This document shows, piece after piece, positions 14,670 through 29,857 of a stretch of 51,660 bases of DNA; positions within the stretch are counted from its first letter, which is position 1; every line of letters begins with the position of its first letter. A program made the position numbers and the translations under genes. The DNA comes from Elusimicrobiota bacterium. GTDB lineage: Bacteria > Elusimicrobiota > Elusimicrobia > Elusimicrobiales > UBA9959. The stretch lies in the NCBI GenBank assembly GCA_022013385.1, contig JAKLQJ010000061.1, positions 1 to 51,660 on the forward strand, given 5' to 3'. The notes below the pieces were generated by a model. That model ran no database searches, was not told the DNA's origin, and saw only the letters and a list, made by a program, of their open reading frames with translations.

Positions 14670-15224
14670 TTATATCAAATTCCCTAAAGGCCCCAAATCC
14701 AGATTCAGGTCTTCATCCTCAATACCAAAGATTACCTGGATTTCTTTTATCTTTTTCTTTACCGCCTTAAGGCTTAAACCCAATTTCTGGACTTCCGCTT
14801 TTGAAAGGGCGCCTTTTTTTACCCGCCGGAATGCCTCTTTCTCCATAAGCCTTCTTATAAGTTCAACCAGGGTTAAAATTAATTTAGCCAGACCCTGCTC
14901 CGTCTTTTTGGGGCTTCCAAGGTCAATAAGTTTGGGAATATTTTCTTCGGCTCTTTTTATCTCCCTTTGCAGTTTCTGTATATAGGCCGCATCCTCGGGA
15001 GTAAATTCTTTATCCCGGTCGCTGAAATTCTTGCCGGATAATTCTTCCGCCTTGGAAACAGAGGTTAAGATAAGCCTTAACCCCAAAAAGACAAGGTCAA
15101 CATCCGCCACTCTTATTACTATATCGCCATTGATAAGGGCGCCTTTCTCCAAAACCTTATCCAGAGCGTCCACTAATGTCACACGCTCATTTTTATTTAC
15201 CAGGCTATTTGATCGATTAATCAT
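14670..15224 (-). CDS. gvpK: GvpJ-like (GvpA-fold) domain fused to GvpK
   Basis: The N-terminal half, TLVDALDKVLEKGALINGDIVIRVADVDLVFLGLRLILTSVSKAEEL, is GvpA/J/M-fold. The C-terminal half, GLAKLILTLVELIRRLMEKEAFRRVKKGALSKAEVQKLG...LNLDLGPLGNLI, matches the GvpK signature. Confidence 0.85.
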   Translation of the reverse strand: MINRSNSLVNKNERVTLVDALDKVLEKGALINGDIVIRVADVDLVFLGLRLILTSVSKAEELSGKNFSDRDKEFTPEDAAYIQKLQREIKRAEENIPKLIDLGSPKKTEQGLAKLILTLVELIRRLMEKEAFRRVKKGALSKAEVQKLGLSLKAVKKKIKEIQVIFGIEDEDLNLDLGPLGNLI

Positions 15225-15233
15225 AATATTGGG

Positions 15234-16043
15234 TTAAAAAGAAACAAAATTATAAGCGGGCCAGGGGCCGCCACATTCAAGGTAAACCCCTTTTGCCGGC
15301 ATTTTCTGGTTTAAATTTTCAATTTCTTTCTTAAAACCTCCGATTTTCTCCTCAGAAACCAAGTAGGCGGCGTTCGAAACCATGGGTTCGGACTTTCCGG
15401 TTAGTTCTTTTCCCAGGATTTTGCTTTTGACGCAAGCCCCGGATTGCTTTCCAAGAGCTTTAAAGACTTCATCCGCGATATTGTTCACTTCTTTATCCGT
15501 TTCCTCGCCGATAAGCTTCCTTAATTCTTCTTCCATAAAAAAAGCCATCCCTTCAGGCAGAGATGCCATTTCCTTTTCTTTCTCTTTTATTGTTTCGTTT
15601 TTTTCTTTTACCGTCTGTTCTAATTTCCACATGTCTTTCAGGTATATCTTTACGGACCATTCCTGTTTTCCGCGAATTTTGTCCAGGTTTTCCTTAGCCT
15701 TCGCGTAACCTTTATACAGGGTTTCCTCCAAACTTGTTTTTTCTTTAAAAATCGTCCCGAATCTCATAGGAATCACGCTTGAAACCTTATCTTTGTTTTT
15801 CATCGCCTCTTCTATAACTCTCTCATGAGCCAGGGCTTTTTCTTTAATCCATTTTAAGTCTTCCTGCGACTTTTTTTGTATTTCTTCAGAACCAAATTCT
15901 TCCAAAGAAACATTGCTTACCACTGCCTCTAACTCTTTATAAGGAATAGTGAAAACCTCTTCCTCTCCATCAATGCCTTTTATGGAAATCCCCGGTGAAT
16001 TTTCAGTTTTTTCTCTAAGACAGTAAAGATATAAACCTTGCAT
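15234..16043 (-). CDS. gas vesicle protein GvpF/GvpL family (paralogue 1)
   Basis: LYLYCLRE...FTIPYKELEAVVSNVSLEEF...ALAHERVIEEAMK...VIPMRFGTIF is the typical GvpL_GvpF N-terminal pattern. Confidence 0.88.
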   Translation of the reverse strand: MQGLYLYCLREKTENSPGISIKGIDGEEEVFTIPYKELEAVVSNVSLEEFGSEEIQKKSQEDLKWIKEKALAHERVIEEAMKNKDKVSSVIPMRFGTIFKEKTSLEETLYKGYAKAKENLDKIRGKQEWSVKIYLKDMWKLEQTVKEKNETIKEKEKEMASLPEGMAFFMEEELRKLIGEETDKEVNNIADEVFKALGKQSGACVKSKILGKELTGKSEPMVSNAAYLVSEEKIGGFKKEIENLNQKMPAKGVYLECGGPWPAYNFVSF

Positions 16044-16726: not shown

Positions 16727-17503
16727 TCAATCCGTGTTTATTACCAGATTCACAAAATTGAACAGCGGCAATGTCCCCACATATTTAAATTTGATCCTGT
16801 TCCCGTATTTCACGCCCAATTGTTCCACCAGCCTATCAAAGCCCGCTTCTTTATTCTGCTCAACCAGGAACGCTGCGCTTAGAATCATCAGTTCGCCGTA
16901 GTTGCTGTTGACCTTCACTTCCACTGCCAGAGGCGAAAGAATATTTAAAATATCCTCTTTGCAGCGCTCTTTTTCTTTTTGCAGAGCGGCTTCAACCATC
17001 TCGCCTATTGCCATGCGCTGGGCATGTGTCTGGTTAACAGGCAGCACAGCTATTTTTTCCTTCAAGATCCTTATGTCCGCGTGTTTCTCCAAAATATGGC
17101 CGTAAATGTCCTCTTTCCCGCCTGCTTGCGCGCCTTTCGCGTGAAACACGGCTTTTAACCCCAGCTCTTTTTTACCGGACATAACACCTAATAAATCAGA
17201 AAATTTGTCGCGCTCGGTCTCCAGTATCTCCCTGATTTTTTTGTCATCTGCGGCAATGGTGCAAAACCGAACAGGCAAAACGGTGTGTTCCTTCATCACC
17301 TCCTCAATGGCCTTTTCATGGGATATCAGGTTTTCTCTTGAGACCGGATATTTTATTATGGGAGAATTACTCACCACCGCGGCGATATCTTTGAAGGCGA
17401 TGGTATAGAGCTGGTCACCTTTCCCTCCGATTCCCAATGGACCGAAAGTTTGAGTTTTATTTGCCTTAATAATGCAATATATATATCTGCCTTCTTTTTC
17501 CAT
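16727..17503 (-). CDS. gas vesicle protein GvpF/GvpL family (paralogue 2)
   Basis: GRYIYCIIKANKTQTFGPLGIGGKGDQLYTIAFKDIAAVVSNSP...SHEKAIEEVMKEHTVLPVRFCTI. Start taken at MEKEGRYIY (17503). Confidence 0.88.
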   Translation of the reverse strand: MEKEGRYIYCIIKANKTQTFGPLGIGGKGDQLYTIAFKDIAAVVSNSPIIKYPVSRENLISHEKAIEEVMKEHTVLPVRFCTIAADDKKIREILETERDKFSDLLGVMSGKKELGLKAVFHAKGAQAGGKEDIYGHILEKHADIRILKEKIAVLPVNQTHAQRMAIGEMVEAALQKEKERCKEDILNILSPLAVEVKVNSNYGELMILSAAFLVEQNKEAGFDRLVEQLGVKYGNRIKFKYVGTLPLFNFVNLVINTD

Positions 17504-17526
17504 AGTTTTAATCTGTAATGCCCCCG

Positions 17527-18588
17527 TTACTTGACCAATAGTTTGCAACGGGACTCATCAGCGTTGGCCGCGACTAATGCGCCTTTAGCCACGCTTCTTA
17601 AGGGTTGAGATGCCATCCTTACGGAACCAATCGGAATAGGCAGTTTTAATTGGTCCAAGATCTGCTTAAATCTGTTACAAAAACCTTTAGGCAAAGCTGT
17701 GCCTCCGGAGAGAAAGATGGATATGGGTTTTGTAAGCCGCGGTAATTTTTTTGTCCTGGTAATTCTCTCTTTTATGTTCTCAATCACATACTCAATCAAG
17801 TGGTTATAATAAATGGATAAAGCGCTTTCAATCTTGCTTAAGTCTCCTTCCTTACCTAAATCCAGGGATGATTCTTTTATGCTGGAGACCCTGCTCGCTG
17901 TTTCATCCGTTGCCATAGCCACCTGCTGGTCGATCCAATCCCCTGACTTGGCGACGGAAAACTTGAAAATCGGCACAGACATGAAACTTAAACAGACATT
18001 TACCATCCCGCCGCCGAAGGAAATGCCCATCCCGGTGAAATCTTCTTCAGCTAACTCCGATAATACAATCGCATGGGCTTCGTTGATAGCCTTCGGAGCG
18101 TATCCTAATGTCTTCAGGAACCCTTCAACCATTTTTATATGATAAAGGACATTGAATTCCGCGTCCAGGGGTTCGCCCGGGACGGAAAAATAGACTATCT
18201 CGCCTTTATGGGCAGGCTCGCCTACCACGCTTTTTATCAACAACTCTATTATAGGAAGCGCTTCTTTCTCCGAGGGACTTATCACGCCCTTGGAGAGAGG
18301 CCGCCTTGTTTCTTTATTAAACATATTGGCAAATTCCAAGGCCTCATCGCCCACTATATAGAGATTGTTCTCTTTTATAATATATCTTACCCCGGAATTA
18401 TCAAGGATCTTCTTTGTGAAATCAGTATGTTCTATGTCAAAGAAGGCGTTTCGCTGTGATTTAAAGACGACATCATCGCTTTCCTTATGGGCGCATTTTA
18501 CAAACATTGTGCCGATATCCACGCCCTTGCCTTTTTGTATCTGTCCTTTAAGGCTTTCTATTTTCATTCCTTTCTTGGGCTTAGTCAT
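17527..18588 (-). CDS. actin/MreB/Hsp70-NBD-fold ATPase (353 aa) inside the gvp island
   Basis: Three motifs appear in the canonical order: GVDIGTMFVKCA (phosphate-1), GISFGGGMVNV (phosphate-2) and LSGGTALPKGF (adenosine). There is also an MreB-like RRPLSKGVISPSEKEALPIIELLIK segment. GGGGAG RBS; the ATG overlaps the upstream stop. Confidence 0.7.
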   Translation of the reverse strand: MTKPKKGMKIESLKGQIQKGKGVDIGTMFVKCAHKESDDVVFKSQRNAFFDIEHTDFTKKILDNSGVRYIIKENNLYIVGDEALEFANMFNKETRRPLSKGVISPSEKEALPIIELLIKSVVGEPAHKGEIVYFSVPGEPLDAEFNVLYHIKMVEGFLKTLGYAPKAINEAHAIVLSELAEEDFTGMGISFGGGMVNVCLSFMSVPIFKFSVAKSGDWIDQQVAMATDETASRVSSIKESSLDLGKEGDLSKIESALSIYYNHLIEYVIENIKERITRTKKLPRLTKPISIFLSGGTALPKGFCNRFKQILDQLKLPIPIGSVRMASQPLRSVAKGALVAANADESRCKLLVK

Positions 18589-19111
18589 TTTTTCTCCCCT
18601 TTTTATAAATTTCGTTAAGCAATTTCACTGTTTTATCTATATCTGACTTCTCCTTTTCCATCTTTATTCCAATTTTATTGATATTGCTTTCTAAAGCCAG
18701 ACTTTCATCTTCTATGGGAAAATCAAAATCGGTGTTTATTTTTATGCGTTTTTCCGGCGTCTCAAGTTCCGTCTCTTTTCTTATTTCCCTGATAGAAACA
18801 GGGATCTTGATGCCCTTTACGGTCCTCTTCAGCTCGCCGCTGATTTCCCTGGCTACTTCCTCGGCAACCTCTTTAAGCAGTTTCCTGTCGATTTTTGGCG
18901 TTTCTTCCGCCAATAGCGTCTTTATTCTCTCTTTTGCCAGGGAATAATGACCTGCAGAAAAACCAAGATAGCCTTTTCTGAATAAATCACGGCAGAGATA
19001 ACCTATATATTCCAGCGAAAAGCCGACCTGCCTTCGTATCTGGTCTTTTTTCGCCATCCTTAATCTGGCTACACAATTAATGATATCCGCTTCTGTCCCG
19101 GTCAAAGCCAC
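18581..19111 (-). CDS. winged-helix-like N-terminal domain plus charged coiled-coil tail (176 aa)
   Basis: GTG start at 19111 follows GGGAGAA. TEADIINCVARLRMAKKDQIRRQVGFSLEYIGYLCRDLFRKGYLGF...SLAKE aligns with the three small wHTH paralogues at 26124-26940. Confidence 0.55.
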   Translation of the reverse strand: MALTGTEADIINCVARLRMAKKDQIRRQVGFSLEYIGYLCRDLFRKGYLGFSAGHYSLAKERIKTLLAEETPKIDRKLLKEVAEEVAREISGELKRTVKGIKIPVSIREIRKETELETPEKRIKINTDFDFPIEDESLALESNINKIGIKMEKEKSDIDKTVKLLNEIYKKGRKND

Positions 19112-19112
19112 T

Positions 19113-19883
19113 CTATTTCTCCCATTCCTCAGGATAAATGATGATGTTGACGAAATTAAAGGCGGGCAAAGGCCCCGCGTAGGCAAATTTTATCCTGTTT
19201 TTATACTCTTCGCTTAAATCGCTCATAATATTGTCAAATTCTTTTTCCCTGCCTTTGTCCACCAGGAAAGCGGCGTTTATAAACATATTGTCGCCGCTGG
19301 TTTTATTGAGCTTATAACTGACGGAGGTTCTTCTCAGGCGCTCTACTATTTCCTCCGCCTCATTGGTTTTCTTTTTTTGCAGGGCGGCTTCCACCAGTTT
19401 ACCCGCTTCCCCTTTTTTTGGGATATTTTTCACGGTCGCGTCGTTTTGGAGTTTCTCCTTCATCTCGCGGATATCCGCGTTTCCTTTCACAATTTCCTTA
19501 AAAATAACGCCCATGTCCACCCATGTCCCTTTGACGCCCAGTTCCACCTTATGGTCTAAATCGCGCAAAGCGATTTTGAATTCCCCGCGTCTGCGGTCCA
19601 GGAGATTCCTTATTTCATCGGCGCTGGCGGCGATGGTGCCGAATCTGATCGGAAGCGCGCTGTCAAATTCCTTCATCACTTCCTCTATAACCCTCGCGTG
19701 GGCCAGCATGTTTTCGCCTGTTGCCTTAATTTTGGTCAAAGGATGATTGCTTACCACCATGGTTAGGTCGTCATAGCCGATAGTCAGGACTTCGCCGCCG
19801 TTTATGCCTATCGGGCCGAAATTTCTTTCCTGCCTGTCGCCGATTATGCAATAGGCGTATTGGCCTTCTTTTATTATTATCAT
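19113..19883 (-). CDS. gas vesicle protein GvpF/GvpL family (paralogue 3)
   Basis: MIIIKEGQYAYCIIGDRQERNFGPIGINGGEVLTIGYDDLTMVVSNHPL...AHARVIEEVMKEFDSALPIRFGTI. The ORF-track N-terminal extension (MTYGHQTARTGT) is repeat-derived. Confidence 0.88.
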   Translation of the reverse strand: MIIIKEGQYAYCIIGDRQERNFGPIGINGGEVLTIGYDDLTMVVSNHPLTKIKATGENMLAHARVIEEVMKEFDSALPIRFGTIAASADEIRNLLDRRRGEFKIALRDLDHKVELGVKGTWVDMGVIFKEIVKGNADIREMKEKLQNDATVKNIPKKGEAGKLVEAALQKKKTNEAEEIVERLRRTSVSYKLNKTSGDNMFINAAFLVDKGREKEFDNIMSDLSEEYKNRIKFAYAGPLPAFNFVNIIIYPEEWEK

Positions 19884-19938
19884 CGTCCCCGTCCTAGCCG
19901 TCTGATGACCATAGGTCATGATACGGCACAGCCATAGG

Positions 19939-21012
19939 CTAGTCTGTCATTTTAACCAGTATGGCGCTTTCTTTGAATTTTTCTTCGCTGAAGGAGATAT
20001 CCGCCTCACTGCCCGCTGGCCCGCCGTCCGTTTGGCGGGTCTGCTCGCCGGCCCGGCAATAGTCCGCCAGAATTTTATACGCTCTCGCGGCATTGCCGAA
20101 TTCTTTTTCCATTCCGGGCTTATCCGGGTTTTTGTCGGGATGCAAAGCATGCGCCGCGCGGTGATAGTGTCTTTTGATTTCGCTTTTGGTTATTATCATG
20201 GTGGACACCCCTAATTGATTGCGCGCCCACTCCAGGTCCTTAAAATCCAGTTTCTTTATATCAATGGTGTAAAAACTATATGGGGGCAATGGGCCGATGC
20301 ACCGGAAATTCAGCTTTTCGGAGCATTCTTTATTAAGGCTTTCTATACGCGCATAAAATTCCTCTTGTTTAGCTTTGCTTATCAAAAAAGCTGAATTCAT
20401 TACCATCTGGTCATCCATTAATTCATGCGCCTTGCAATCATGGCTCATTCGTTTTAAAGTATCCTGTATCAAACTTGAATAATGCTGCTTTTTTTCGTCC
20501 AATATTTCCATAACCTTAAGGCCGACTTTCATCTGATCGTCCACAGTCACGCCTTTAGCGGCTCCCAAAAGAACTTTTTTTAACTCCGTTATTTCTTTTT
20601 CCTGTCCGATTCCTTTAAGTATTGAACCAAAATCTTTCCATGTGACGGCGACATCTATTTCTATTTTGTCATGAACTTTTGGGATAATTTCTTTTATCAG
20701 ACGATAACCCTTAACCAGAATATCCCGGACTTCCGCGTCATCACAGGCAAATGTCCCTAATCTGATTGGGATAATGGTGTTTCCGAGTTCCATAATATTC
20801 TCAATTGCCTTTTGGTGCCGGACTAGAAGCATGGCCACAGCGTCTTTGCGCATACTCTTGTAATCAATTATTTCGCAGTCGCTTACCACTGCCGCCGCGT
20901 CCCGGTGCGGGATGGTATAAATGCCCGCTAAATCCGGCGCCGCTTCGGCCCCGGGGAATTTTGCCGCGGCGGATGCGATGATTCCATAAAGATATTTTCC
21001 TGTCTTGCGCAT
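19939..21012 (-). CDS. GvpF/GvpL family protein (paralogue 4) fused to a C-terminal J-domain
   Basis: N-terminus: KYLYGIIASA...IYTIPHRDAAAVVSDCEI...RHQKAIENIMELGNTIIPIRLGTF. C-terminus: KSEIKRHYHRAAHALHPDKNPDKPGMEKEFGNAARAYKILAD, with HPD codons at 20134-20142. GGAGGAG RBS. Confidence 0.85.
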   Translation of the reverse strand: MRKTGKYLYGIIASAAAKFPGAEAAPDLAGIYTIPHRDAAAVVSDCEIIDYKSMRKDAVAMLLVRHQKAIENIMELGNTIIPIRLGTFACDDAEVRDILVKGYRLIKEIIPKVHDKIEIDVAVTWKDFGSILKGIGQEKEITELKKVLLGAAKGVTVDDQMKVGLKVMEILDEKKQHYSSLIQDTLKRMSHDCKAHELMDDQMVMNSAFLISKAKQEEFYARIESLNKECSEKLNFRCIGPLPPYSFYTIDIKKLDFKDLEWARNQLGVSTMIITKSEIKRHYHRAAHALHPDKNPDKPGMEKEFGNAARAYKILADYCRAGEQTRQTDGGPAGSEADISFSEEKFKESAILVKMTD

Positions 21013-21029
21013 ATTTTACTCCTCCGTTA

Positions 21030-21300
21030 GTCCGTTTGTCCCGCCATCGGCGGGATTGCCTGTAACCAGTCACCAGTTACAAATAGGTCACCAGTTACAC
21101 ACAGGTCACCAGTTTCTAGTCACCAGTCACCAGTTACAAACAAAGTCACTCCCGCCATAGGCGGGAGACAGGCCTGTCACCTGTCCACCTGTTGCCTGTA
21201 ACCTGTAGCCTGTTCACTGATTACTGTTCACTGATTACTATTCACTGATTACTGTTCACTGATTTCCTTATAGCAGAGCTTTGCTCTGTAGCTACGCTAT
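21030..21300. repeat. mosaic repeat block (CACCAGT microrepeats, CCCGCC-n-GGCGGG hairpins, and about four copies of the 14-bp TGTTCACTGATTAC at 21211-21264)
   Basis: Read directly. Inverted relative of 6290-6480. Confidence 0.85.
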
Positions 21301-21330
21301 TTGGCTACGCGGGTTTAAATCCTTTATTAA

Positions 21331-21393
21331 CCCGAAAAAATTCGTCTGCCAGTGCGGCGGGCGCCCGCTAAAATAACGGACGAATTTTTCGGG
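21331..21393 (-). terminator. long imperfect hairpin (CCCGAAAAAATTCGTC ... GACGAATTTTTCGGG) downstream of the Cdc48-like operon segment
   Basis: 15-16-nt arms at 21331-21346 and 21379-21393. There is no clean U-tract, so a terminator function is tentative. Confidence 0.3.
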
Positions 21394-21413
21394 TAAGGGA
21401 AAAAAAATCGCGC

Positions 21414-21554
21414 TTATTCTTTAGATTTTTCTGCCAGTGCGGGTTCCTTTTGCAGTTCGGTTTTCCGCTCGCCTGCCGGTTGAGCAGACTTGTCAACTTT
21501 ACATGCTTCTTTCTTTTTAAAAAAATTCTTAATCTTTTTTATAATCCCTGTCAT
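21414..21554 (-). CDS. possible small basic ORF (46 aa), below ORF-track cutoff
   Basis: Own translation: MTGIIKKIKNFFKKKEACKVDKSAQPAGERKTELQKEPALAEKSKE. GGAG lies 7 nt upstream. No homology recognised. Confidence 0.25.
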   Translation of the reverse strand: MTGIIKKIKNFFKKKEACKVDKSAQPAGERKTELQKEPALAEKSKE

Positions 21555-21648
21555 TTTAAACTCCTTTTTTGCGTTACTTTATTTTTCCAAGTTCTACTTC
21601 GCTCAGTGATTTTCTCCTGAGCTTTGTAGAAACTTGGGACTATGCCTG

Positions 21649-23829
21649 TCAAACGGACAAGAACGGCTTAATTGCTTCTTCAAAATGTCTCTTTAAAACT
21701 TTCAGCTCCGGTTCCAGTTCAGACGCACCCTTCATGTCGGAGGCCGGGTTCTTTTCTATGTATTCCCGTATCGCCAGCATTACAGCCTTGCGGCAGATCA
21801 ATTCAATGTCAGAGCCCGTCTTGCCTTCGGTCCCTTTCACCAGGTCTTTCAAATCAATATCATGGGCAAGCGGCTTATTGCGGGTATGTATTTTGAATAT
21901 TTCCTCCCGGGTCCCGGGATCAGGTTTGGGCAGAGACAGCAACAGGTCAAACCTGCCGCTGCGAAGGATAGCGGGCTCAATCAAATCCAGTCTATTTGTG
22001 GTTGCTAAAACCAAGACGCCGTTGAGTTCCTCTATACCGTCCATTTCGGTCAAGAATTGGCTGATGACGCGTTCGGTAACATGCGCGTCCGCGCTCGCGG
22101 AACCTCTTATGGGAAGCAAAGCGTCAATTTCGTCAAAAAACAAAATGGTGGGCGAGGCCTGCTTCGCGGTTTTAAACACCTCGCGCAGAGCCTTCTCGCT
22201 TTCCCCTACAAATTTTGAAATAAGGCTCGGCCCCTTTACTGAGATAAAATTCACGCCGGTCTGACTGGCCACAGCCTTTGCCAGCAAGGTCTTTCCCGTG
22301 CCCGGCTCGCCGTAAAGAAGTATCCCCTTGGGCGGCTTTGCGCCCGCTTTTTTAAAAACAGCCGAATACTTAAGCGGCCACTCGACCGCTTCTTTGAGTT
22401 CTTCCTTTATGCTTTCCAACCCTCCGACATCTTCCCACTTCACATCGGGCACTTCCACGAAGAATTCCCTTATGGCCGAAGGCTCTACTTCTTTCATTGC
22501 GTCGGCAAAATTGTCCATGGAAATTTCCAGCTTGAGCAGGGTTTCGTAAGGGATATCATCCTTAGCAAGATCGAGATCGGGCAGAATTTTTCGCAAAGCC
22601 GACATAGCGGCTTCCCTAGCCAGCGCCTCTAAATCCGCTCCCACAAAGCCATGTGTGATTTCAGCCAATTTTTCCGGACTTACATCTTTGGCTAGCGGCA
22701 TGCCTCTGGTGTGAATCTGCAGTATTTGCAGTCTTCCGTTTTTGTCGGGAATGGGGACGGATATCTCCCTGTCAAATCGTCCAGGTCGTCTTAAAGCCGG
22801 ATCTAGGGTATTGGGAATATTCGTAGCTCCTATCACAATAATTTGGCCGCGGGATTTCAAGCCATCCAGTAATGCCAAAAGTTGCGCCACCACGCGCCGC
22901 TCCACCTGCTTTTCACCGCCCATGTCTTCGCGTTTGGGCGCGATGGCGTCTATCTCGTCAATGAAAATGATGGCTGGCGCGTGGGCTTGAGCGTCCTCAA
23001 ATACGCTTCTTAAGCGCCCCTCGCTCTCACCATAAAACTTCCCCATGATTTCAGGGCCGGATATGTGGTTAAAATAAGCGTCGGTTTCATTGGCCACGGC
23101 GCGGGCGATTAAGGTTTTTCCTGTTCCCGGCGGTCCATATAGAAGAACTCCTTTGGGCGCGTCTATTCCCAATCTTTCAAATATCTGAGGATAGCGCAAA
23201 GGCAATTCAATCATCTCCCTGATTCGCCGAATTTGCTGACCAAGTCCGCCGATGTCCTCGTAAGATATCTTGGTTTGTCCGTCTTTCTCTGTTTCTTTTA
23301 CATCCATCCTTAATAGAGTGGATATATTTATCAAAACCGTTCCGTCGGGAACGGTATCCGATACCTTAAAATCGCAAGATCTTGACCCGAATAGCATGGC
23401 CCTGACCCTGTCTCCGCTCGCGACGGGGAGCCCCTCTATGAGCGAACCCAAATATTTGGTGTCCTGATTCTTCCGCGACAGAGAGGAAAGAGACAAAGGG
23501 ATGAGGGTAATTCGGACAGCAGGCTTTGGAACAATTTTGTGAATGTTTACTTTTTCATCCAGTCCGATTTGCGCGTTTTCCCTGCATATTCCATCCATCT
23601 GAATGATGCCCTTTCCTCTATCTTCAGCATAACAAGGCATGGCCTTGGCGGATGTTTTTCTCTTGCCTTCAACCTCAAGGATGTCGCCTACTTCCGCGTT
23701 GAGCGTCTTCAGGTCTTCAGGATCAATTCTCACAATCGCCCTGCCGACATCTTTGGCTAAAGCCTCTTTTACTTTCAATGTCAAGAGCGCGTCGCCTTTT
23801 CCCGTTTTCTTATTTATATCTTTACCCAT
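21649..23829 (-). CDS. Cdc48/VCP/VAT-like AAA+ ATPase (N-domain plus D1 and D2)
   Basis: Cdc48-type N-domain (LKVKEALAKDVGRAIVRIDPEDLKTLNAEVGDILEVEGKRKT). Two Walker A motifs (GPPGTGKTLIARAVANE and GEPGTGKTLLAKAVAS), two DEID Walker B motifs. 726 aa. Confidence 0.93.
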   Translation of the reverse strand: MGKDINKKTGKGDALLTLKVKEALAKDVGRAIVRIDPEDLKTLNAEVGDILEVEGKRKTSAKAMPCYAEDRGKGIIQMDGICRENAQIGLDEKVNIHKIVPKPAVRITLIPLSLSSLSRKNQDTKYLGSLIEGLPVASGDRVRAMLFGSRSCDFKVSDTVPDGTVLINISTLLRMDVKETEKDGQTKISYEDIGGLGQQIRRIREMIELPLRYPQIFERLGIDAPKGVLLYGPPGTGKTLIARAVANETDAYFNHISGPEIMGKFYGESEGRLRSVFEDAQAHAPAIIFIDEIDAIAPKREDMGGEKQVERRVVAQLLALLDGLKSRGQIIVIGATNIPNTLDPALRRPGRFDREISVPIPDKNGRLQILQIHTRGMPLAKDVSPEKLAEITHGFVGADLEALAREAAMSALRKILPDLDLAKDDIPYETLLKLEISMDNFADAMKEVEPSAIREFFVEVPDVKWEDVGGLESIKEELKEAVEWPLKYSAVFKKAGAKPPKGILLYGEPGTGKTLLAKAVASQTGVNFISVKGPSLISKFVGESEKALREVFKTAKQASPTILFFDEIDALLPIRGSASADAHVTERVISQFLTEMDGIEELNGVLVLATTNRLDLIEPAILRSGRFDLLLSLPKPDPGTREEIFKIHTRNKPLAHDIDLKDLVKGTEGKTGSDIELICRKAVMLAIREYIEKNPASDMKGASELEPELKVLKRHFEEAIKPFLSV

Positions 23830-23877
23830 ATTTATTCACCTTATTAAACCGCCATATTCGAAAATGACGGGGGTGGT

Positions 23878-24858
23878 TCACCGCGCATTAAGTTTGCTTG
23901 CTAACGAAGTTTGTAGGTCGCTTTGCGATGCCAATTGAAGGCCGAAAGTATTTAAATCGTTCATGCCTTTAACTTCCCGCGGCCGCAAAAACACGAGGGT
24001 TGTCTTGAGATTTGCGAATTTTTTCTTTATCCGGCTTATATACTTTTCCTGCTCTTTTCTTCTCTCTCTGCAAAATTTGCAATCGCTCGGTTCCATAACA
24101 TTATTGATAACCAATTGTTTCACTTCCACGCCGTAATCGCTCAAACTTTGAATCAATCGCGAGGTTTCCTGAATAGCCATATCTTCGGGAATCGTAACGC
24201 CAATGAACTCACAGCGGTTTTCATCCTTAATAAGTTCTCCTATTTTTTTTACCATCTTTTTCATATTTAGCAGAAAATCATCGGCTTTATCGGGAACATA
24301 TCTGCCGCTGAAGGTTTTAATTATATATCGATACTTCCATCTAATCTTAGCCAACATCTTAATCCAACCATCCAGAAGTTGGGGCATGGTTAAAAGCCGC
24401 AAGGCATGGCCGGTAGGCGCGGTATCAATTATGTATTTATCGAATTCCCCTTTGTCCATAAGATTTAGTACGGTTTTAAAACCCATAACTTCGTCTAACC
24501 CGGGGATAGACAGGGAAAACACGGATTCAATATCGTCTTTGTCTAAATTGGTTGATGTATCCAATATTTCTCTAATCTCTTTGGCATATTCCGTTTTAAA
24601 TTCGCTAAGGGCTTTGTCCGCGTTTATTTCAAGCGCCCACAAATTTTTTATGCCTTTTACCTCTTTTATACTATCTCCGATTTGTTGTCCCAGACTGTCC
24701 GATATGGAATGCGCCGGGTCGGTAGACAAAAGAAGTGTTTTAAATTCTTTGGCCAGAAAAACACCGGTGCTGACAGCGCAGGTCGTTTTTCCCACGCCGC
24801 CTTTGCCACCAAACAGAATAAGCTTTAATGCGCTTTCTTTAAGTCCAATCAGGGGCAT
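23878..24858 (-). CDS. single-domain ArsA/Get3-family ATPase with Get3-type CxxC
   Basis: Deviant Walker A GGKGGVGKTT, and STDPAHSISDSLG. CKFC (24070-24081) is followed by RERRKEQEKYISRI, which resembles the Get3 zinc-motif region. Overlaps the Hsp20 stop by 10 nt. Confidence 0.88.
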   Translation of the reverse strand: MPLIGLKESALKLILFGGKGGVGKTTCAVSTGVFLAKEFKTLLLSTDPAHSISDSLGQQIGDSIKEVKGIKNLWALEINADKALSEFKTEYAKEIREILDTSTNLDKDDIESVFSLSIPGLDEVMGFKTVLNLMDKGEFDKYIIDTAPTGHALRLLTMPQLLDGWIKMLAKIRWKYRYIIKTFSGRYVPDKADDFLLNMKKMVKKIGELIKDENRCEFIGVTIPEDMAIQETSRLIQSLSDYGVEVKQLVINNVMEPSDCKFCRERRKEQEKYISRIKKKFANLKTTLVFLRPREVKGMNDLNTFGLQLASQSDLQTSLASKLNAR

Positions 24859-25370
24859 TTTTTAAGCCTCACTTCGAGAACTCCGTTTTTATAGGACGGG
24901 ATGGGAACCTCGGCCGTCACTTTCGCCGGGAGCAGGATTTCTTTGTGGTATTTCCTGTCACTTGTCCCGGCCCGGATATCCAGGATGTCGCCTTTTAAGT
25001 CCAGCTTTATGTCCGCTTCGTTCACACCTGGCATTTCAGCATACACCCGGATCTCTTCTTTCTCATCAAAGATGTCCGTGATGGGCTCGCGCTCTTCTTC
25101 AACTATAGGGCCCTTGGGCGTTTTTTTGATATTGCCAAATGGTTCAACGACCGCTTTTCCTCCGGCCATGTTCTTTACTGAAAACCCGAAAACGCCTTTC
25201 ATCCCTTTTTTAAGATGGCTTAAATCAATTTCGCCTTCTTTTTTGATTTCGCCGCCCGCATCTTCTAGTTTGCTAGCCAGATCAATCAGTTGCCCAATCC
25301 CCTTAAATAACCCGCCAATGCCAAAATCAAAACCTATTTCTTCTTCCTTTTTCTTCTTTTCCTTTGCCAT
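24849..25370 (-). CDS. Hsp20/alpha-crystallin family small heat-shock protein
   Basis: C-terminal ACD: EIRVYAEMPGVNEADIKLDLKGDILDIRAG...KEILLPAKV...SYKNGVLEVRLKK. GGAGG RBS. Confidence 0.9.
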   Translation of the reverse strand: MAKEKKKKEEEIGFDFGIGGLFKGIGQLIDLASKLEDAGGEIKKEGEIDLSHLKKGMKGVFGFSVKNMAGGKAVVEPFGNIKKTPKGPIVEEEREPITDIFDEKEEIRVYAEMPGVNEADIKLDLKGDILDIRAGTSDRKYHKEILLPAKVTAEVPIPSYKNGVLEVRLKKCP

Positions 25371-25418
25371 AGATTACCTCCATAGAAACTTAGGCTCTTT
25401 TACAAGAAAGAACCCTTC

Positions 25419-25796
25419 TTACTTTTTATAAACGATCCCTATTCCTTTACATAATAAACAGGGTAGATTGCCGCCTTTTTCCCTTCCCCTCCCTCTGCAA
25501 GTAGGGCATATCTCTACTTTGCTAGTAGGGACGCTCACAACCCCTTTTCCCCTACAGACAGAACAGGTAAGGTCGCGATTTATATGTGATTTTCCTGAAC
25601 CATTACAATAAGCGCAGACCACTGCCGGCGGTTGAACCTTTATTGTCCCGGCGCCCAAACAAACATTACACTTCATGCTTTTTTTAGATCCTCTTCCTGT
25701 GCAGAAGCCACATCTATATATGTGTTCATTGAGAACTTCACCCTTTCTGCCTGTTCTGCCTGATAGTTGGCTCTTAAAATTCATGGTTTTCCACAT
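25419..25796 (-). CDS. zinc-finger protein with six DnaJ-CRD-type CxxCxGxG repeats (paralogue 2)
   Basis: The six repeats are CGFCTGRG, CNVCLGAG, CAYCNGSG, CSVCRGKG, CPTCRGRG and CLLCKGIG. GGGAGG RBS. Confidence 0.8.
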   Translation of the reverse strand: MWKTMNFKSQLSGRTGRKGEVLNEHIYRCGFCTGRGSKKSMKCNVCLGAGTIKVQPPAVVCAYCNGSGKSHINRDLTCSVCRGKGVVSVPTSKVEICPTCRGRGREKGGNLPCLLCKGIGIVYKK

Positions 25797-25824: not shown

Positions 25825-26127
25825 TCAATATTGTAAAGGCACAGTCTTCCAGTCTTTTTCAGATTTTTTAAATTCTTTTCCCACACTTTCTTTTCTCTCG
25901 ACTTCTTGCTTTTGTAATTCGTCCATCTGCTTATTAACATCATCGAGTTTCTTTCGGATATCCTTTATCCTTTTATCTAAAGGATAGAGTTCTTTTTCCA
26001 ACCTATCTTTTTCTTTATATAGTATATGTAAGTGACCAAAGATTTCTAACTGTGAGATAGACCTTTTGTCGCTTGAGCTCATACTCCGGTTGTTTCTTAA
26101 ACCGCTAATTTCCGATACATCCTTCAT
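25825..26127 (-). CDS. coiled-coil hypothetical protein ending in WKTVPLQY (paralogue of 27630-27953)
   Basis: Shares M(K/R)DV..GL, KRSI, (L/I)Y..KEK(D/E)RL.KE and the terminal (D/E)WKxxPLxY with its paralogue. ATGA start/stop overlap with the upstream gene. Confidence 0.6.
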   Translation of the reverse strand: MKDVSEISGLRNNRSMSSSDKRSISQLEIFGHLHILYKEKDRLEKELYPLDKRIKDIRKKLDDVNKQMDELQKQEVERKESVGKEFKKSEKDWKTVPLQY

Positions 26128-26333
26128 TTTATCATGCCCTTTCCTTTTACAGTTATTCTACAAGATGAGGGCGAAAAAAATCCCACGCAATCTTGTCTTT
26201 CTAATGCCTTGCACAATATATAAGTATAGCCAATTTCAAAGCCTGCTTTGGTGCTCAGTTCCTTCATACATATCAAATCGTTTTTTTCCTTTATAATCCT
26301 TAATATCTCTAATTCCGTAGCGGTTACAGTCAT
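26124..26333 (-). CDS. small winged-helix-like protein (69 aa), paralogue c
   Basis: TATELEILRIIKEKNDLICMKELSTKAGFEIGYTYILCKALERQDCVGF...ITVKGKG aligns with 26342-26650, 26665-26940 and 18581-19111. Confidence 0.55.
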   Translation of the reverse strand: MTVTATELEILRIIKEKNDLICMKELSTKAGFEIGYTYILCKALERQDCVGFFSPSSCRITVKGKGMIK

Positions 26334-27180: not shown

Positions 27181-27477
27181 TTATTTTATCTTCGCTTCTA
27201 AGCGCTCAAGTCGCTTTTTGAGTGTCATATTTTCTTTTTCTATCTCAGATTCTTTTGCTTTTGAGGAAAGAAAATCATCAGTTTGCCACCAATTTATACC
27301 CATCTGCATTGCTTTATCCACAGAAGCGACTAAAAGTCTTATCTTGATAGTGAGCAAATCTACATCAGCAACTTGAATCTTAATGTCACCGGCAATGACT
27401 ATTCCTTTATCTAAGACTCTTTCTAATATATCAGCGAGATTGATGGTTTCAACAGCGTGGACTATCTGATTAGGCAT
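27181..27477 (-). CDS. gvpJ: gas vesicle protein GvpJ/GvpM type (GvpA fold)
   Basis: INLADILERVLDKGIVIAGDIKIQVADVDLLTIKIRLLVASVDKAMQMGINWW. The ATG at 27477, 7 nt after AGGAGG, is preferred over the GTG at 27486. Confidence 0.88.
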   Translation of the reverse strand: MPNQIVHAVETINLADILERVLDKGIVIAGDIKIQVADVDLLTIKIRLLVASVDKAMQMGINWWQTDDFLSSKAKESEIEKENMTLKKRLERLEAKIK

Positions 27478-27495
27478 TTTTAACACCTCCTGGAT

Positions 27496-28331: not shown

Positions 28332-29300
28332 TTATATAGCTACAGTCTCTTTCTTTGCTTCTTTCTTTATATCAACAGTTTTTCCCTTGCCAAGTTCTTT
28401 TTCCACAAGCCCCTTAATTATGTCCTTTACTCTAGCCTGATTCGTCTTAGAACCAACCCTGCTTGTCTCTGAGGCCAGAATATCCTGACATGTTTTCATA
28501 AACCCATCAGATTTAGAGGGGGTGAAGTTTTGAGCTTTAAGGGTTTTGGCAATCATAATGCAGCCACGGACTGTGGGCGCAAACTCACACTTTCCAGAGT
28601 CTCTTAAGCCTCTGACAATATTGACTATTACTTCTGCATGGGGTTTAGAAAGTTTAGACTTTGCCAGAGTGATAGCCAGTTCTGTCTCATAGTCAAAGCA
28701 GTCCAAATCCATTGTTATCATTCTATCCCGAAGAGCATCCTGGCTCCTATGAACACCAGCATATTCCTCAGGGTTAGAGGTAAAGATCGCTGTAAACTCA
28801 GGATCTACCCTTAAATACGGCTCCGCTCCATCTCTTCCCACTGGCATATCCATCATCTTCTCCTGCAAAATAGAAAGGAGGATGTTATTTGCCTCAGGCC
28901 GTGAGCGAGTAAACTCATCATAGATTAGTGTAAATCCATATTTACAGGCAACGGTCAGGCGGTTATCCACCCAGCGCTTTACCATATCCTCTTCTACTTT
29001 TAAAACCCGGGAGACAAAGCGATCAACAATCTTTTTAAACCGATAGCCGTGCTCACCACCCACTAAATCCGAAGTGGTAAACTCCTCATCTCCATGAATC
29101 ATTACTACCGGCCTTCCTATTTTACTTGAAATGTGCATAGCCAGTGTAGTCTTGCCGGTGCCAGAGATTCCTCTAAAATGCACCGGAAAACCAGCCTTAA
29201 TATAGGAAAGAGTCCTATTAGTGATATCCTTAACATATTTTGTCTCAACAAAGTCCGGCAGGGGACTGGGTTCTAATACTGTAGTCATCTCATCAATCAT
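28332..29300 (-). CDS. gvpN: gas vesicle AAA+ ATPase GvpN
   Basis: FPVHFRGISGTGKTTLAMHISSKIGRPVVMIHGDEEFTTSDLVGGEHGY and LIYDEFTRSRPEANN are typical of GvpN. 322 aa. Confidence 0.92.
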   Translation of the reverse strand: MIDEMTTVLEPSPLPDFVETKYVKDITNRTLSYIKAGFPVHFRGISGTGKTTLAMHISSKIGRPVVMIHGDEEFTTSDLVGGEHGYRFKKIVDRFVSRVLKVEEDMVKRWVDNRLTVACKYGFTLIYDEFTRSRPEANNILLSILQEKMMDMPVGRDGAEPYLRVDPEFTAIFTSNPEEYAGVHRSQDALRDRMITMDLDCFDYETELAITLAKSKLSKPHAEVIVNIVRGLRDSGKCEFAPTVRGCIMIAKTLKAQNFTPSKSDGFMKTCQDILASETSRVGSKTNQARVKDIIKGLVEKELGKGKTVDIKKEAKKETVAI

Positions 29301-29306: not shown

Positions 29307-29504
29307 TCACTCTCCTTTCTTAATTTTTTGCTTCTTTTTCTCCAATATTTCACTCGTTTCTTTCCAGATTATAGTTGCTTCTTCTAAATCTTCCACTATC
29401 TCCTTTTTCTTCTTCATAAACTCTTCTCTGAAGGAATTGAGTTTGGTTAAGGATTCTTCCTTCCTTTTAATAAATCCATATCTATAATTGCTCAATTCCT
29501 TCAT
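29307..29504 (-). CDS. small charged coiled-coil protein (65 aa)
   Basis: The ATG at 29504 forms an ATGA overlap with the stop of the zinc-finger gene. No family recognised. Confidence 0.45.
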   Translation of the reverse strand: MKELSNYRYGFIKRKEESLTKLNSFREEFMKKKKEIVEDLEEATIIWKETSEILEKKKQKIKKGE

Positions 29505-29857
29505 TTCGCTATCTTTTTCTTTAAGATAATCCCTTTGCCTCTGCATTCAATACAAGGAAGGCCGCTATCAAATGCTGCGCCTGTGCCTTTACACTTAGGA
29601 CACCCTTCAGTCGCGCCTTTAACAGTGACACTTCCCTTGCCATTACAGACAGTGCAGGTAAGCCGTCTATGGGGATAAACGCCGGCGCCGTTACAAAAGA
29701 CACATTTTATTGCCGGTTCTATTACCTCAACTTTACCCCTTCCTCCGCAGACTTGACAGGTGGCAAACTCAGACAACAAATCAAAGGGGTCTTTACCTGT
29801 GCCTTTGCAGAAAGCGCACCCTGCCTCTTTAAAGGCATACTTTATTTTTTTCATCAT
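29501..29857 (-). CDS. zinc-finger protein with six DnaJ-CRD-type CxxCxGxG repeats (paralogue 1)
   Basis: The six repeats are CAFCKGTG, CQVCGGRG, CVFCNGAG, CTVCNGKG, CPKCKGTG and CIECRGKG. Confidence 0.8.
   Translation of the reverse strand: MMKKIKYAFKEAGCAFCKGTGKDPFDLLSEFATCQVCGGRGKVEVIEPAIKCVFCNGAGVYPHRRLTCTVCNGKGSVTVKGATEGCPKCKGTGAAFDSGLPCIECRGKGIILKKKIAK

What the first reader, a model, noticed from the sequence alone, without database searches (positions are those of the whole stretch)
19939..21012. GvpF/L paralogue fused to a C-terminal J-domain with an intact HPD motif
**What is seen.**
- The first 260 or so residues show the GvpL_GvpF pattern: KYLYGII..., IYTIPHRDAAAVVSD, IIPIRLGTF.
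- The last 100 or so residues are a J-domain: KSEIKRHYHRAAHALHPDKNPDKPGMEKEFGNAARAYKILAD, with HPD codons at 20134-20142.

**Why it matters.**
- J-domains recruit and activate Hsp70 ATPases.
- GvpF/L proteins are thought to contact the GvpA shell or nucleate assembly.
- A covalent GvpF/L-J fusion would target Hsp70-type chaperone activity directly to nascent gas vesicles. I am not aware of a described example.
Basis: partly seen in the sequence, partly recalled or inferred. Interest (0 to 1): 0.78.

Follow-up and report, generated by a model that had tools for sequence, protein, structure and literature searches.

The report
Gas-vesicle GvpF/L protein carrying J-domain
One gene in a gas-vesicle cluster of an uncultured Elusimicrobia bacterium fuses a GvpF/L assembly factor to an intact Hsp70-activating J-domain; the fusion is conserved across many uncultured bacterial phyla but I found no paper describing it, and it implies that Hsp70 helps build gas vesicles in these organisms.

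Summary
ORF 19939-21012 (- strand, 357 aa) is one uninterrupted protein. It has a GvpL_GvpF domain (residues 5-248, E 1.8e-50) and a J-domain (267-317 by Pfam, E 2.7e-11, above the gathering score). The HPD codons lie at 20134-20142.

It is not an assembly chimera:
- 119 of the 120 best database homologues carry both domains.
- 72 of 73 complete orthologous ORFs in species-representative genomes keep HPD. All of the 80 loci kept are MAGs or SAGs, with more than 12 phylum-level labels.
- dN/dS of the J core is 0.12-0.20.

The AlphaFold2 model is confident (pLDDT 92, pTM 0.84). It matches the GvpF crystal structures and the DnaK-bound DnaJ J-domain.

The gene holds a fixed place in a conserved, chaperone-rich gvp cluster: DnaJ-type zinc-finger protein, GvpN, HSP20, ArsA/Get3-like ATPase, CDC48, the fusion, then further gvpF/L, G, O, J-K and A genes. 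No Hsp70 gene lies in the window or in any of the 80 related loci.

The 17527-18588 protein is an actin-like Volactin-family protein, not an Hsp70, and occurs in only 7 of 80 loci.

Best reading: a client-specific class-C J-domain protein that couples a GvpA-binding GvpF/L module to the housekeeping DnaK. The architecture is common in databases, but I found no paper describing it.

The parts
19939..21012 (-). Complete gene for the GvpF/L-J fusion protein (357 aa plus stop codon)
   Evidence: Single ORF. Identical to an NCBI protein from an Elusimicrobia MAG on a 51660-base contig (P0001).
21021..21025 (-). Shine-Dalgarno sequence GGAGG, 8 nt upstream of the ATG
   Evidence: Read directly from the sequence.
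20269..21000 (-). GvpL_GvpF domain (residues 5-248)
   Evidence: Pfam PF06386, E 1.8e-50. Foldseek matches GvpF 6l5d and 4qsg with E 1e-13 to 1e-14 and target-normalised TM-score of about 0.8.
20026..20244 (-). J-domain (residues about 257-329; helices 257-267, 276-290 and 301-329)
   Evidence: Pfam PF00226 at 43.9 bits, above the 27.8 cut-off. Secondary structure from the AF2 model. Foldseek matches J-domains including 5nro_B, rmsd 1.6 A over 55 columns.
20134..20142 (-). HPD motif codons (H291 P292 D293)
   Evidence: Invariant in 119 of 119 aligned homologues. Present in 72 of 73 complete orthologous ORFs in GTDB loci.
19942..20025 (-). Conserved C-terminal tail (residues 330-357, ...SFSEEKFKESAILVKMTD), ending in a hydrophobic-basic beta-strand
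   Evidence: L352 and V353 are nearly invariant. The motif occurs in 109 of 120 homologues. AF2 predicts strands at 338-340 and 351-355, with pLDDT about 91 at the end of the protein.
21649..23829 (-). CDC48-family double-ring AAA+ ATPase, the conserved gene immediately upstream
   Evidence: NCBIfam TIGR01243 at 927.9 bits, above the 802.65 cut-off. Immediately upstream of the fusion in 70 of 71 loci.
23878..24858 (-). ArsA/GET3/TRC40-family ATPase
   Evidence: Pfam ArsA_ATPase, E 1e-80. TIGR00345 at 277 bits. Present in 37 of 43 loci of at least 14 kb.
24849..25370 (-). HSP20-family small heat-shock protein
   Evidence: Pfam HSP20 and ArsA_HSP20. NCBIfam Hsp20, E 1.3e-39. Present in 42 of 43 loci of at least 14 kb.
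25419..25796 (-). Small protein made only of a DnaJ-type CXXCXGXG zinc finger
   Evidence: Pfam DnaJ_CXXCXGXG, E 5.6e-11.
29501..29857 (-). Second small protein made only of a DnaJ-type zinc finger
   Evidence: Pfam DnaJ_CXXCXGXG, E 1.4e-11.
28332..29300 (-). GvpN-like AAA+ ATPase
   Evidence: Pfam AAA_5, E 1.5e-18. Conserved position in related loci.
27181..27486 (-). GvpA-family shell protein, the presumed client
   Evidence: Pfam Gas_vesicle, E 1.8e-17.
19113..19919 (-). GvpF/L paralogue immediately downstream (the likely true start is the inner ATG near 19883)
   Evidence: Pfam GvpL_GvpF, E 5.3e-59. It is the downstream neighbour in 68 of 72 loci and lies close to the fusion's stop codon in most loci: 2 nt after it in L081/L082.
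16727..17548 (-). Third GvpF/L paralogue
   Evidence: Pfam GvpL_GvpF, E 7.9e-60.
15234..16043 (-). Fourth GvpF/L paralogue (GvpL-like)
   Evidence: Pfam GvpL_GvpF, E 2.1e-56. In NCBIfam the GvpL model outscores the GvpF model.
14670..15224 (-). Fusion of a GvpA/J-like domain with GvpK
   Evidence: Pfam Gas_vesicle plus GvpK.

Best explanation
The gene encodes a client-specific, class-C (type III) J-domain protein dedicated to gas-vesicle biogenesis.

**Proposed mechanism**
- The N-terminal GvpF/L domain is the client-binding module. By homology with GvpF it should bind the hydrophobic GvpA-family shell protein or a GvpA-containing assembly intermediate.
- The C-terminal J-domain docks on ATP-bound housekeeping DnaK, which is encoded elsewhere in the genome. 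Through its HPD loop it triggers ATP hydrolysis, so that DnaK clamps onto the client held by the GvpF/L domain.
- This keeps the aggregation-prone shell protein soluble and passes it on to, or releases it at, the growing vesicle.
- It works within a conserved set of co-encoded proteostasis factors: an sHSP, DnaJ-type zinc-finger proteins, an ArsA/Get3-like ATPase and a CDC48 unfoldase.

**Shown here**
- The fusion is intact.
- The features that define a J-domain are present.
- The fusion is strongly conserved under purifying selection.
- Its place in the gene cluster is fixed.
- No Hsp70 gene lies in the cluster.

**Inferred**
- That DnaK is the partner.
- That GvpA is the client.
- Which assembly step is served.
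For: **The fusion is real and both domains are sound**
- Both domains score above Pfam gathering thresholds in one ORF.
- The AF2 model has pLDDT 92.2 and pTM 0.84. Its N-terminal part matches GvpF crystal structures (6l5d, 4qsg; target-normalised TM-score about 0.8). Its C-terminal part matches J-domains, including the DnaK-bound DnaJ J-domain 5nro_B (rmsd 1.6 A over 55 columns, 34% identity).

**The J-domain looks functional** (the contact list is from my own knowledge)
- HPD is invariant in 119 of 119 homologues.
- Positions aligned with the E. coli DnaJ residues that contact DnaK are kept:

| E. coli DnaJ | In the homologues | Count of 119 |
|---|---|---|
| R22 | K or R | 118 |
| R27 | R or K | 100 |
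| R36 | K or R | 117 |
| N37 | N | 116 |
| F47 | F or Y | 119 |

- Helix II-HPD-helix III is the Hsp70-stimulating interface (PMC10410713). D35 of the HPD pairs with DnaK R167 (PMC7289447).

**Conservation**
- dN/dS is 0.12-0.20 for the J core and 0.10-0.13 for the GvpF/L domain.
- 119 of the 120 best homologues carry both Pfam domains.
- 72 of 73 complete ORFs in GTDB species representatives keep HPD.
- Synteny is near-invariant, with CDC48 upstream in 70 of 71 loci and a gvpF/L paralogue downstream in 68 of 72.
- Independent gene calls on a 182-kb JGI contig show the same architecture.

**Fit with published work**
- GvpF is proposed to be the primary, transient, chaperone-like binder of the hydrophobic face of GvpA (Iburg et al. 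2024, PMC11445434).
- GvpA overproduction causes proteotoxic stress (PMC12848028).

**Class assignment**
- The protein has no G/F region, zinc finger or DnaJ C-terminal domains, so it is class C. Such proteins typically recruit Hsp70 to one specific client (PMC10410713).
Against: - No Hsp70 or GrpE gene lies in the 51.7-kb window or within 10 kb of the fusion in any of the 80 related loci. The partner is therefore assumed, not observed.
- Every carrier among the 80 loci kept is a MAG or SAG, and I found no report of gas vesicles observed in these lineages.
- The high pTM and the beta-strands in the tail suggest the J-domain is packed rigidly against the rest of the protein. I could not inspect coordinates, so I do not know whether the HPD face is exposed.
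- This paralogue is only 24-29% identical to the three other GvpF/L copies and scores far below the GvpF and GvpL equivalog cut-offs. Its client may therefore not be GvpA.
- The near-obligate adjacency to CDC48 has no explanation in a pure DnaK model.
Confidence: 0.65

Rival explanations
1. The molecule is the same but the job is different: an auxilin-like release or recycling factor. The GvpF/L domain sits on the assembly complex or on the nascent shell. The J-domain brings in DnaK to strip GvpF/L-type factors (itself, or the adjacent paralogue) or mis-inserted GvpA off the structure, rather than to deliver soluble GvpA.
For: - The GvpF-GvpA interaction is transient and is displaced by GvpG in B. 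megaterium (PMC11445434).
- The fusion gene lies close to the next gvpF/L paralogue in most loci: 2 nt after the fusion's stop codon in L081/L082. That would fit a hetero-complex, though I did not test it.
- Class-C J-domain proteins include disassembly factors such as auxilin (PMC10410713).
- A CDC48 unfoldase is always adjacent, which fits an extraction or quality-control module.
Against: No data here separate delivery from release. Both use the same sequence features.
Confidence: 0.2
2. The J-domain does not act on DnaK. It acts on a cluster-encoded ATPase: the adjacent CDC48, the ArsA/Get3-like ATPase, or the actin-fold Volactin-like protein, whose fold resembles the Hsp70 nucleotide-binding domain.
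For: - CDC48 is immediately upstream in 70 of 71 loci.
- No Hsp70 gene lies in any locus.
Against: - The Volactin-like gene accompanies the fusion in only 7 of 80 loci and shows no DnaK similarity.
- The J-domain keeps exactly the residues that contact the DnaK nucleotide-binding domain and linker.
- I know of no precedent for a J-domain activating a CDC48 or Get3 ATPase (own knowledge).
- ArsA is missing from several loci that still carry the fusion.
Confidence: 0.05
3. The J-domain is a structural relic: a J-like fold used only for packing or oligomerisation, as in Pam16/Tim16-type J-like domains, with no Hsp70 function.
For: The model suggests the domain is docked rigidly, with a conserved tail strand. 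Helix IV is not canonical.
Against: - J-like domains typically lose the HPD motif (own knowledge). Here HPD is invariant in 119 of 119 homologues, and the flanking residues that contact Hsp70 are conserved.
- The J core is under purifying selection.
Confidence: 0.05
4. The fusion is an artefact: an assembly chimera or a missed frameshift that joins a gvpF/L gene to a dnaJ fragment.
For: The window comes from a MAG. A second gvpA copy in the same window does carry a frameshift.
Against: - The same continuous ORF recurs in more than 100 independent assemblies from different studies and phyla.
- The junction region (residues 249-262, including W262 and A263) is itself conserved.
Confidence: 0.01

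Closest known systems
GvpF (Microcystis aeruginosa 4QSG, Anabaena 6L5D; functional studies in Halobacterium salinarum and Bacillus megaterium)
   Same: - Residues 5-248 have the same fold and Pfam family.
- The gene lies in a gvp cluster beside gvpG, gvpO, gvpJ/K and other gvpF/L copies.
- GvpF is proposed to act as a chaperone-like binder of GvpA (PMC11445434).
   Different: - It carries a C-terminal J-domain and a conserved tail that the characterised GvpF and GvpL proteins lack.
- Identity to the crystallised GvpFs is only about 20-22%.
- It scores far below the NCBIfam GvpF and GvpL equivalog cut-offs.
Client-specific class-C J-domain proteins (HscB/Hsc20 delivering IscU to HscA/Ssq1; auxilin bringing Hsc70 to clathrin)
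   Same: One J-domain with HPD is joined to a dedicated client-binding domain, with no G/F region, zinc finger or C-terminal domains. The logic is to recruit Hsp70 to one assembly pathway (PMC10410713).
   Different: - The J-domain is C-terminal and apparently docked rigidly.
- The client domain is GvpF/L.
- No dedicated Hsp70 paralogue is encoded nearby, whereas hscB lies next to hscA (the latter from my own knowledge).
DnaJ (class A Hsp40)
   Same: The J-domain sequence is closest to bacterial DnaJ J-domains. The DnaJ-type CXXCXGXG zinc finger is present in the cluster, but on separate small proteins.
   Different: It is not a DnaJ orthologue. NCBIfam DnaJ models score 22-37 bits against cut-offs of 338-619. 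It has no G/F region or C-terminal domains.
gvp clusters containing ArsA and Hsp20 (Castillo & Saier 2010: Pelodictyon luteolum, Polaribacter irgensii, Geobacter uraniireducens)
   Same: gvp genes are co-encoded with an ArsA homologue and hsp20, and there are several L/F paralogues (PMC2963123).
   Different: - That paper does not mention a J-domain or CDC48.
- The ArsA proteins it reports in gvp clusters are two-domain proteins of about 600 aa. Here ArsA is a single-domain protein of 326 aa.
- This cluster type adds CDC48, zinc-finger proteins and the J-domain fusion.

Membership tests
GvpL/GvpF family (PF06386) | The profile HMM match is above the curated threshold and covers the whole domain. 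| tested here: met
   172.7 bits against a 23.6 cut-off, profile positions 1-244 of 245.
GvpL/GvpF family (PF06386) | The GvpF fold (two alpha/beta subdomains). | tested here: met
   AF2 model against 6l5d and 4qsg: E 1e-13 to 1e-14, target-normalised TM-score 0.78-0.81.
GvpL/GvpF family (PF06386) | Encoded within a gas-vesicle gene cluster. | tested here: met
   GvpA, N, G, O, J-K and three further F/L genes lie on the same strand. The synteny is conserved.
GvpL/GvpF family (PF06386) | Binds a GvpA-family protein and is required for vesicle formation. | not testable with these tools
   This needs interaction and genetic assays.
GvpF or GvpL orthologue (NCBIfam equivalogs NF052351 and NF045778) | The score is above the equivalog cut-off. 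| tested here: not met
   75.3 bits against 350 (GvpF) and 56.9 against 200 (GvpL). It is a distinct paralogue.
J-domain protein | The J-domain HMM match is above the gathering score. | tested here: met
   PF00226 at 43.9 bits against 27.8.
J-domain protein | An HPD tripeptide lies between helix II and helix III. | tested here: met
   H291-P292-D293 lie between helices 276-290 and 301-329. The motif is invariant in 119 of 119 homologues.
J-domain protein | A helical hairpin fold that superposes on known J-domains, with a basic helix II. | tested here: met
   5nro_B rmsd 1.6 A over 55 columns, with further J-domain hits. K280, R281 and R285 are conserved. Helix IV is not canonical.
J-domain protein | Stimulates Hsp70 ATPase in an HPD-dependent manner. 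| not testable with these tools
   A biochemical assay is required.
J-domain protein, class C (type III) | Lacks the G/F region, the zinc-finger-like region and the DnaJ C-terminal domains. | tested here: met
   Only PF06386 and PF00226 score above their gathering cut-offs (a third match, DUF2115, reaches 14.4 bits against a cut-off of 25 and is disregarded). There is no DnaJ_C or DnaJ_CXXCXGXG hit at E of 1 or less.
DnaJ (class A chaperone, NCBIfam TIGR02349 and PRK models) | A full-length match above the cut-off. | tested here: not met
   22-37 bits against cut-offs of 338-619, and only the J-domain region aligns.

The most novel reading that the evidence does not exclude
The fusion marks a distinct, ATP-driven gas-vesicle assembly pathway used by a dozen or more uncultured phyla. 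In it, Hsp70 is an obligatory assembly factor. The GvpF/L-J protein hands the hydrophobic GvpA to DnaK. A co-inherited set of factors (CDC48 unfoldase, Get3/ArsA-like targeting ATPase, sHSP and DnaJ-type zinc-finger holdases) forms a dedicated client pipeline. It would be analogous to tail-anchored protein targeting combined with disaggregation, but would deliver protein to a gas-water interface instead of a membrane.
Probability: 0.3. Interest if true: 0.8.

Novelty: new variant of a known kind. Interest (0 to 1): 0.6.

Why it matters
How the extremely hydrophobic GvpA is kept soluble and inserted into a growing gas vesicle is a long-standing open question. GvpF has only recently been proposed to act like a chaperone.

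A domain fusion kept under purifying selection in many phyla is 'Rosetta-stone' evidence of two things:
- A GvpF/L paralogue works as a client adaptor in an ATP-dependent chaperone cycle.
- Hsp70 takes part in vesicle assembly.

This gives directly testable predictions: HPD mutants, dnaK hosts and ATPase stimulation.

It is also relevant to engineering gas vesicles as acoustic reporters, where many clusters fail to assemble in foreign hosts and chaperone capacity is suspected to be limiting.

Finally, it points to a whole chaperone-rich gvp cluster type (CDC48, Get3/ArsA, sHSP, zinc-finger proteins) for which I found no experimental study.

Tried and rejected
**Hsp70 in the window or related loci.** The best hit in the window had E = 6, and there were no hits in the 80 loci. 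No PF00012 gene appears in the independent gene calls. The idea of a cluster-encoded Hsp70 partner is therefore rejected.

**The Volactin-like protein (17527-18588) as partner.** Rejected, for three reasons:
- It belongs to an actin-like family and gives only a weak MamK match.
- It has no DnaK similarity.
- It occurs in only 7 of 80 loci.

**Assembly chimera.** Rejected.

**Literature.** Eight full-text searches on gas vesicles combined with J-domain, DnaJ, DnaK, Hsp70, CDC48/ArsA/Hsp20, GvpL_GvpF or Omnitrophota found no description of the fusion.
- The large J-domain-protein census (PMC10410713) does not mention Gvp in its main text, and its supplements are not held.
- The paper on the DnaK-J-domain crystal structure (Kityk et al. 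2018) is not held. The list of contact residues therefore rests on my own knowledge, plus PMC7289447 for D35-R167.

- I could not inspect the model coordinates, so where the C-terminal tail docks and whether HPD is exposed remain unknown.
- I did not test whether gvp clusters that lack the fusion also lack CDC48.
Full report

Yes. The window holds one uninterrupted ORF at 19939..21012 on the - strand (357 aa, ATG start). A GGAGG ribosome-binding site lies 8 nt upstream.

Pfam places GvpL_GvpF on residues 5-248 (E 1.8e-50). It places DnaJ on residues 267-317 (E 2.7e-11, 43.9 bits against a gathering score of 27.8).

An AlphaFold2 model built on 119 homologues is confident throughout (mean pLDDT 92.2, pTM 0.84). 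Foldseek matches:
- GvpF structures 6l5d and 4qsg, with E 1e-13 to 1e-14 and target-normalised TM-score of about 0.8.
- A series of J-domains, including the DnaJ J-domain bound to DnaK (5nro_B; rmsd 1.6 A over 55 columns, 34% identity).

One refinement: the J-domain proper is about residues 257-329. Residues 330-357 are a separate conserved tail (...F.EEEFKKNAILVKV..) predicted to form short beta-strands.

**2. Artefact or real gene?**

It is real.
- The protein is identical to an NCBI entry from an Elusimicrobia MAG whose contig has the length of this window.
- Of the 120 best homologues (each a 90%-identity cluster), 119 carry both PF00226 and PF06386. The exception is a truncated fragment on a 1-kb contig.
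- A scan of one genome per GTDB species found 139 relatives, of which the best 80 loci were kept. Of these, 73 hold complete ORFs and 72 have HPD. The odd one, L050, is a fragment in a rearranged locus.
- The record titles carry more than a dozen phylum-level labels: Elusimicrobiota, Desantisbacteria, Omnitrophota, Planctomycetota (Pirellulales, Phycisphaerae), Nitrospirota, Nitrospinota, Latescibacterota, Atribacterota, Ignavibacteriales/Melioribacteraceae, Aminicenantes, Chlamydiota, Cloacimonadota, Sumerlaeota and others. All 80 loci kept are MAGs or SAGs.
- Independent gene calls on a 182-kb JGI contig show the same two-domain protein.
- Against the closest relatives, dN/dS is 0.12-0.20 for the J core and 0.10-0.13 for the GvpF/L domain. 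Both are under purifying selection.
- A search with only the J-domain and tail against 1.84 billion representative proteins finds its best matches mostly at the C-terminus of proteins of about 330-415 aa, or in shorter proteins. This J/tail subtype therefore seems to be found mainly in this architecture.

**3. Does the J-domain look functional?**

HPD is invariant in 119 of 119 homologues. I aligned the domain to E. coli DnaJ at an offset of 258 residues. The residues that I know to contact DnaK in the 5NRO complex are conserved (the contact list is my own knowledge):

| E. coli DnaJ | In the homologues | Count of 119 |
|---|---|---|
| R22 | K or R | 118 |
| K23 | K or R | 112 |
| Y25 | Y or F | 103 |
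| R27 | R or K | 100 |
| R36 | K or R | 117 |
| N37 | N | 116 |
| F47 | F or Y | 119 |

Helix II-HPD-helix III is the Hsp70-stimulating surface (PMC10410713). D35 of the HPD pairs with DnaK R167 (PMC7289447).

The protein has no G/F region, zinc finger or DnaJ C-terminal domains, and it falls far below all NCBIfam DnaJ cut-offs. It is a class-C J-domain protein, not a DnaJ orthologue.

**4. Genomic context**

The gene lies in a gvp cluster about 19 kb long on the - strand, from roughly 13.3 to 32.6 kb. In the direction of transcription it contains:
- A GvpO-like protein and two unknown proteins.
- A DnaJ-type zinc-finger protein, then GvpN.
- GvpA.
- Three small winged-helix-like proteins and a coiled-coil protein.
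- A second zinc-finger protein.
- HSP20.
- An ArsA/Get3-family ATPase.
- A CDC48-family AAA+ ATPase.
- The fusion.
- A GvpF/L paralogue.
- An unknown protein and a Volactin-family actin-like protein.
- A GvpF/L paralogue, GvpG and GvpO.
- A GvpL-like paralogue and a GvpJ-GvpK fusion.
- Small proteins, a frameshifted second gvpA, and a conserved unknown protein.

Across 50 related loci of at least 12 kb the order is almost invariant: Zn-N-(Zn)-HSP20-ArsA-CDC48-fusion-FL-FL-G-O-FL-JK-...-A.
- CDC48 is the immediate upstream neighbour in 70 of 71 cases.
- A GvpF/L paralogue is the downstream neighbour in 68 of 72 cases, and it lies close to the fusion's stop codon: 2 nt after it in L081/L082.

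No Hsp70 gene was found in the window (best tblastn E = 6) or in any of the 80 loci, and none appears in the precomputed Pfam calls.

It has no DnaK similarity. It occurs, always next to the unknown gene at 18581-19186 wherever the locus extends that far, in only 7 of 80 loci. It cannot be the general partner of the J-domain.

**5. Most likely mechanism**

GvpF is the one accessory protein consistently found to bind GvpA. Iburg et al. propose that it binds GvpA's hydrophobic face transiently, like a chaperone, before GvpG takes over (PMC11445434). GvpA overproduction is proteotoxic (PMC12848028).

Class-C J-domain proteins generally couple one specific client-binding domain to Hsp70 (PMC10410713).

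The best-supported reading follows from these points. The GvpF/L domain holds a GvpA-family client, and the J-domain recruits and fires the housekeeping DnaK on it. This either keeps the client soluble for delivery or releases it (or the assembly factors) at the vesicle, which is the auxilin-like variant.

The other conserved cluster genes point to a dedicated proteostasis pipeline around the shell protein. They are the sHSP, the zinc-finger proteins that resemble the DnaJ zinc-finger module in isolation, the Get3/ArsA-like ATPase and the CDC48 unfoldase.

What is shown and what is inferred:
- Shown: the domain identities, the conservation of functional residues, purifying selection, the synteny and the absence of a local Hsp70.
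- Inferred: DnaK as partner, GvpA as client, and the step served.

Confidence that this is a functional Hsp70 co-chaperone acting in vesicle biogenesis is about 0.65.

**6. Comparison with what is known, and novelty**

ArsA homologues and hsp20 in gvp clusters were noted in 2010, in Pelodictyon, Polaribacter and Geobacter uraniireducens, without any mention of DnaJ or a J-domain (PMC2963123).

None of eight full-text searches on gas vesicles returned a paper that describes a GvpF/L-J fusion or an Hsp70 role in vesicle assembly. MAG papers that mention gas-vesicle genes in such phyla do not discuss it.

The sequences themselves have long been in databases under automatic names: 'GvpL/GvpF family gas vesicle protein', 'J domain-containing protein', 'Chaperone protein DnaJ'.

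The architecture is therefore common but, as far as I can find, uncharacterised. It is a new variant of two known kinds, the GvpF/L assembly factors and the class-C J-domain proteins. It is not a categorically new system.

**7. Verdict**

- The fusion is widespread rather than unusual.
- The proposed in-cluster partner is an actin homologue, not an Hsp70.
- Hsp70 involvement is still an inference.

Interest is 0.6. The value lies in a strong, testable link between the Hsp70 system and gas-vesicle assembly, and in pointing to a whole chaperone-rich cluster type for which I found no experimental study.

Noticed in passing
window 17527-18588 (-) and 18581-19186 (-): A Volactin-family actin-like protein (Pfam E 6.7e-95; weak MamK and MreB matches) is paired with an unknown 201-aa protein, inserted between two gvpF/L genes. 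The actin-like gene occurs in only 7 of 80 related loci, next to the unknown gene wherever the locus extends that far (for example L012, L024, L041, L063, L071). It could be a filament-plus-adaptor system that positions gas vesicles, by analogy with MamK and magnetosomes.
   Followed up: partly
window 21649-25796 (-) and 29501-29857 (-): A conserved block of proteostasis genes lies inside the gvp cluster: CDC48-family AAA+ ATPase, single-domain ArsA/Get3-like ATPase, HSP20, and two small proteins that consist only of a DnaJ-type CXXCXGXG zinc finger. The modules of DnaJ (J-domain, zinc finger) are thus spread over separate cluster genes. CDC48 is immediately upstream of the fusion in 70 of 71 loci.
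   Followed up: partly
window 14082-14375 (-): A second gvpA-like gene is split by a frameshift. The N-terminal part (MHATDATNLADIMERVLDKGIVIAGDI*) is in one frame and the rest (..IKIRLVVASIDKAMEMGINWWQ..) in another. This is either a pseudogene or a MAG consensus error. Related loci have an intact gvpA at this position.
   Followed up: partly
window 21013-21648: The gap between CDC48 and the fusion is unusually long at 636 bp; the median in related loci is 107 nt. It contains a 46-aa ORF with a good ribosome-binding site (21414-21554, -). It also has two tandem-repeat arrays (14-nt unit x3.9 at 21210-21264; 18-nt unit x3.9 at 21069-21142). Two similar GC hairpins (CCCGCC-NATG-GCGGG) are present, one of them terminator-like at 21149-21167.
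   Followed up: partly
window 26124-26940 (-) and the N-terminal part of 18581-19186 (-): Three tandem small paralogues (69, 102 and 91 aa) have a winged-helix-like motif (..Y.Y..C..L...). One gives a weak MarR hit. The unknown partner of the actin-like protein appears to carry a similar N-terminal motif, judged by eye.
   Followed up: no
window 25825-26127 (-) and 27630-28052 (-): Two coiled-coil proteins with no Pfam family share a C-terminal motif (..EKDWKTVPLQY and ..KKEWKKMPLSY). They appear to be paralogues specific to this cluster type; the 27630 type occurs in 13 of 80 loci.
   Followed up: no
window 13321-14001 (-), 14405-14662 (-), 30188-30982 (-), 31017-31793 (-): Cluster proteins with no Pfam or NCBIfam match. 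The 226-aa protein at 13321-14001 closes the cluster in 37 of 43 long loci, and the 85-aa protein at 14405-14662 is present in 27 of 43. They are uncharacterised candidate Gvp accessory proteins.
   Followed up: no
window 14670-15224 (-): A GvpA/J-like domain (Gas_vesicle) is fused to GvpK in one polypeptide. The same fusion appears in the independent gene calls of L081 and L082.
   Followed up: no
window 8763-9515 (+); loci L081 and L082, 1-2650: An IS200-like (Y1 transposase) gene lies about 4 kb outside the cluster in the window. In another lineage the same cluster type follows a PAS histidine kinase, a sigma-54 activator and a response regulator. The near-identical synteny at only 45-55% identity across phyla suggests the cluster moves horizontally.
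   Followed up: no
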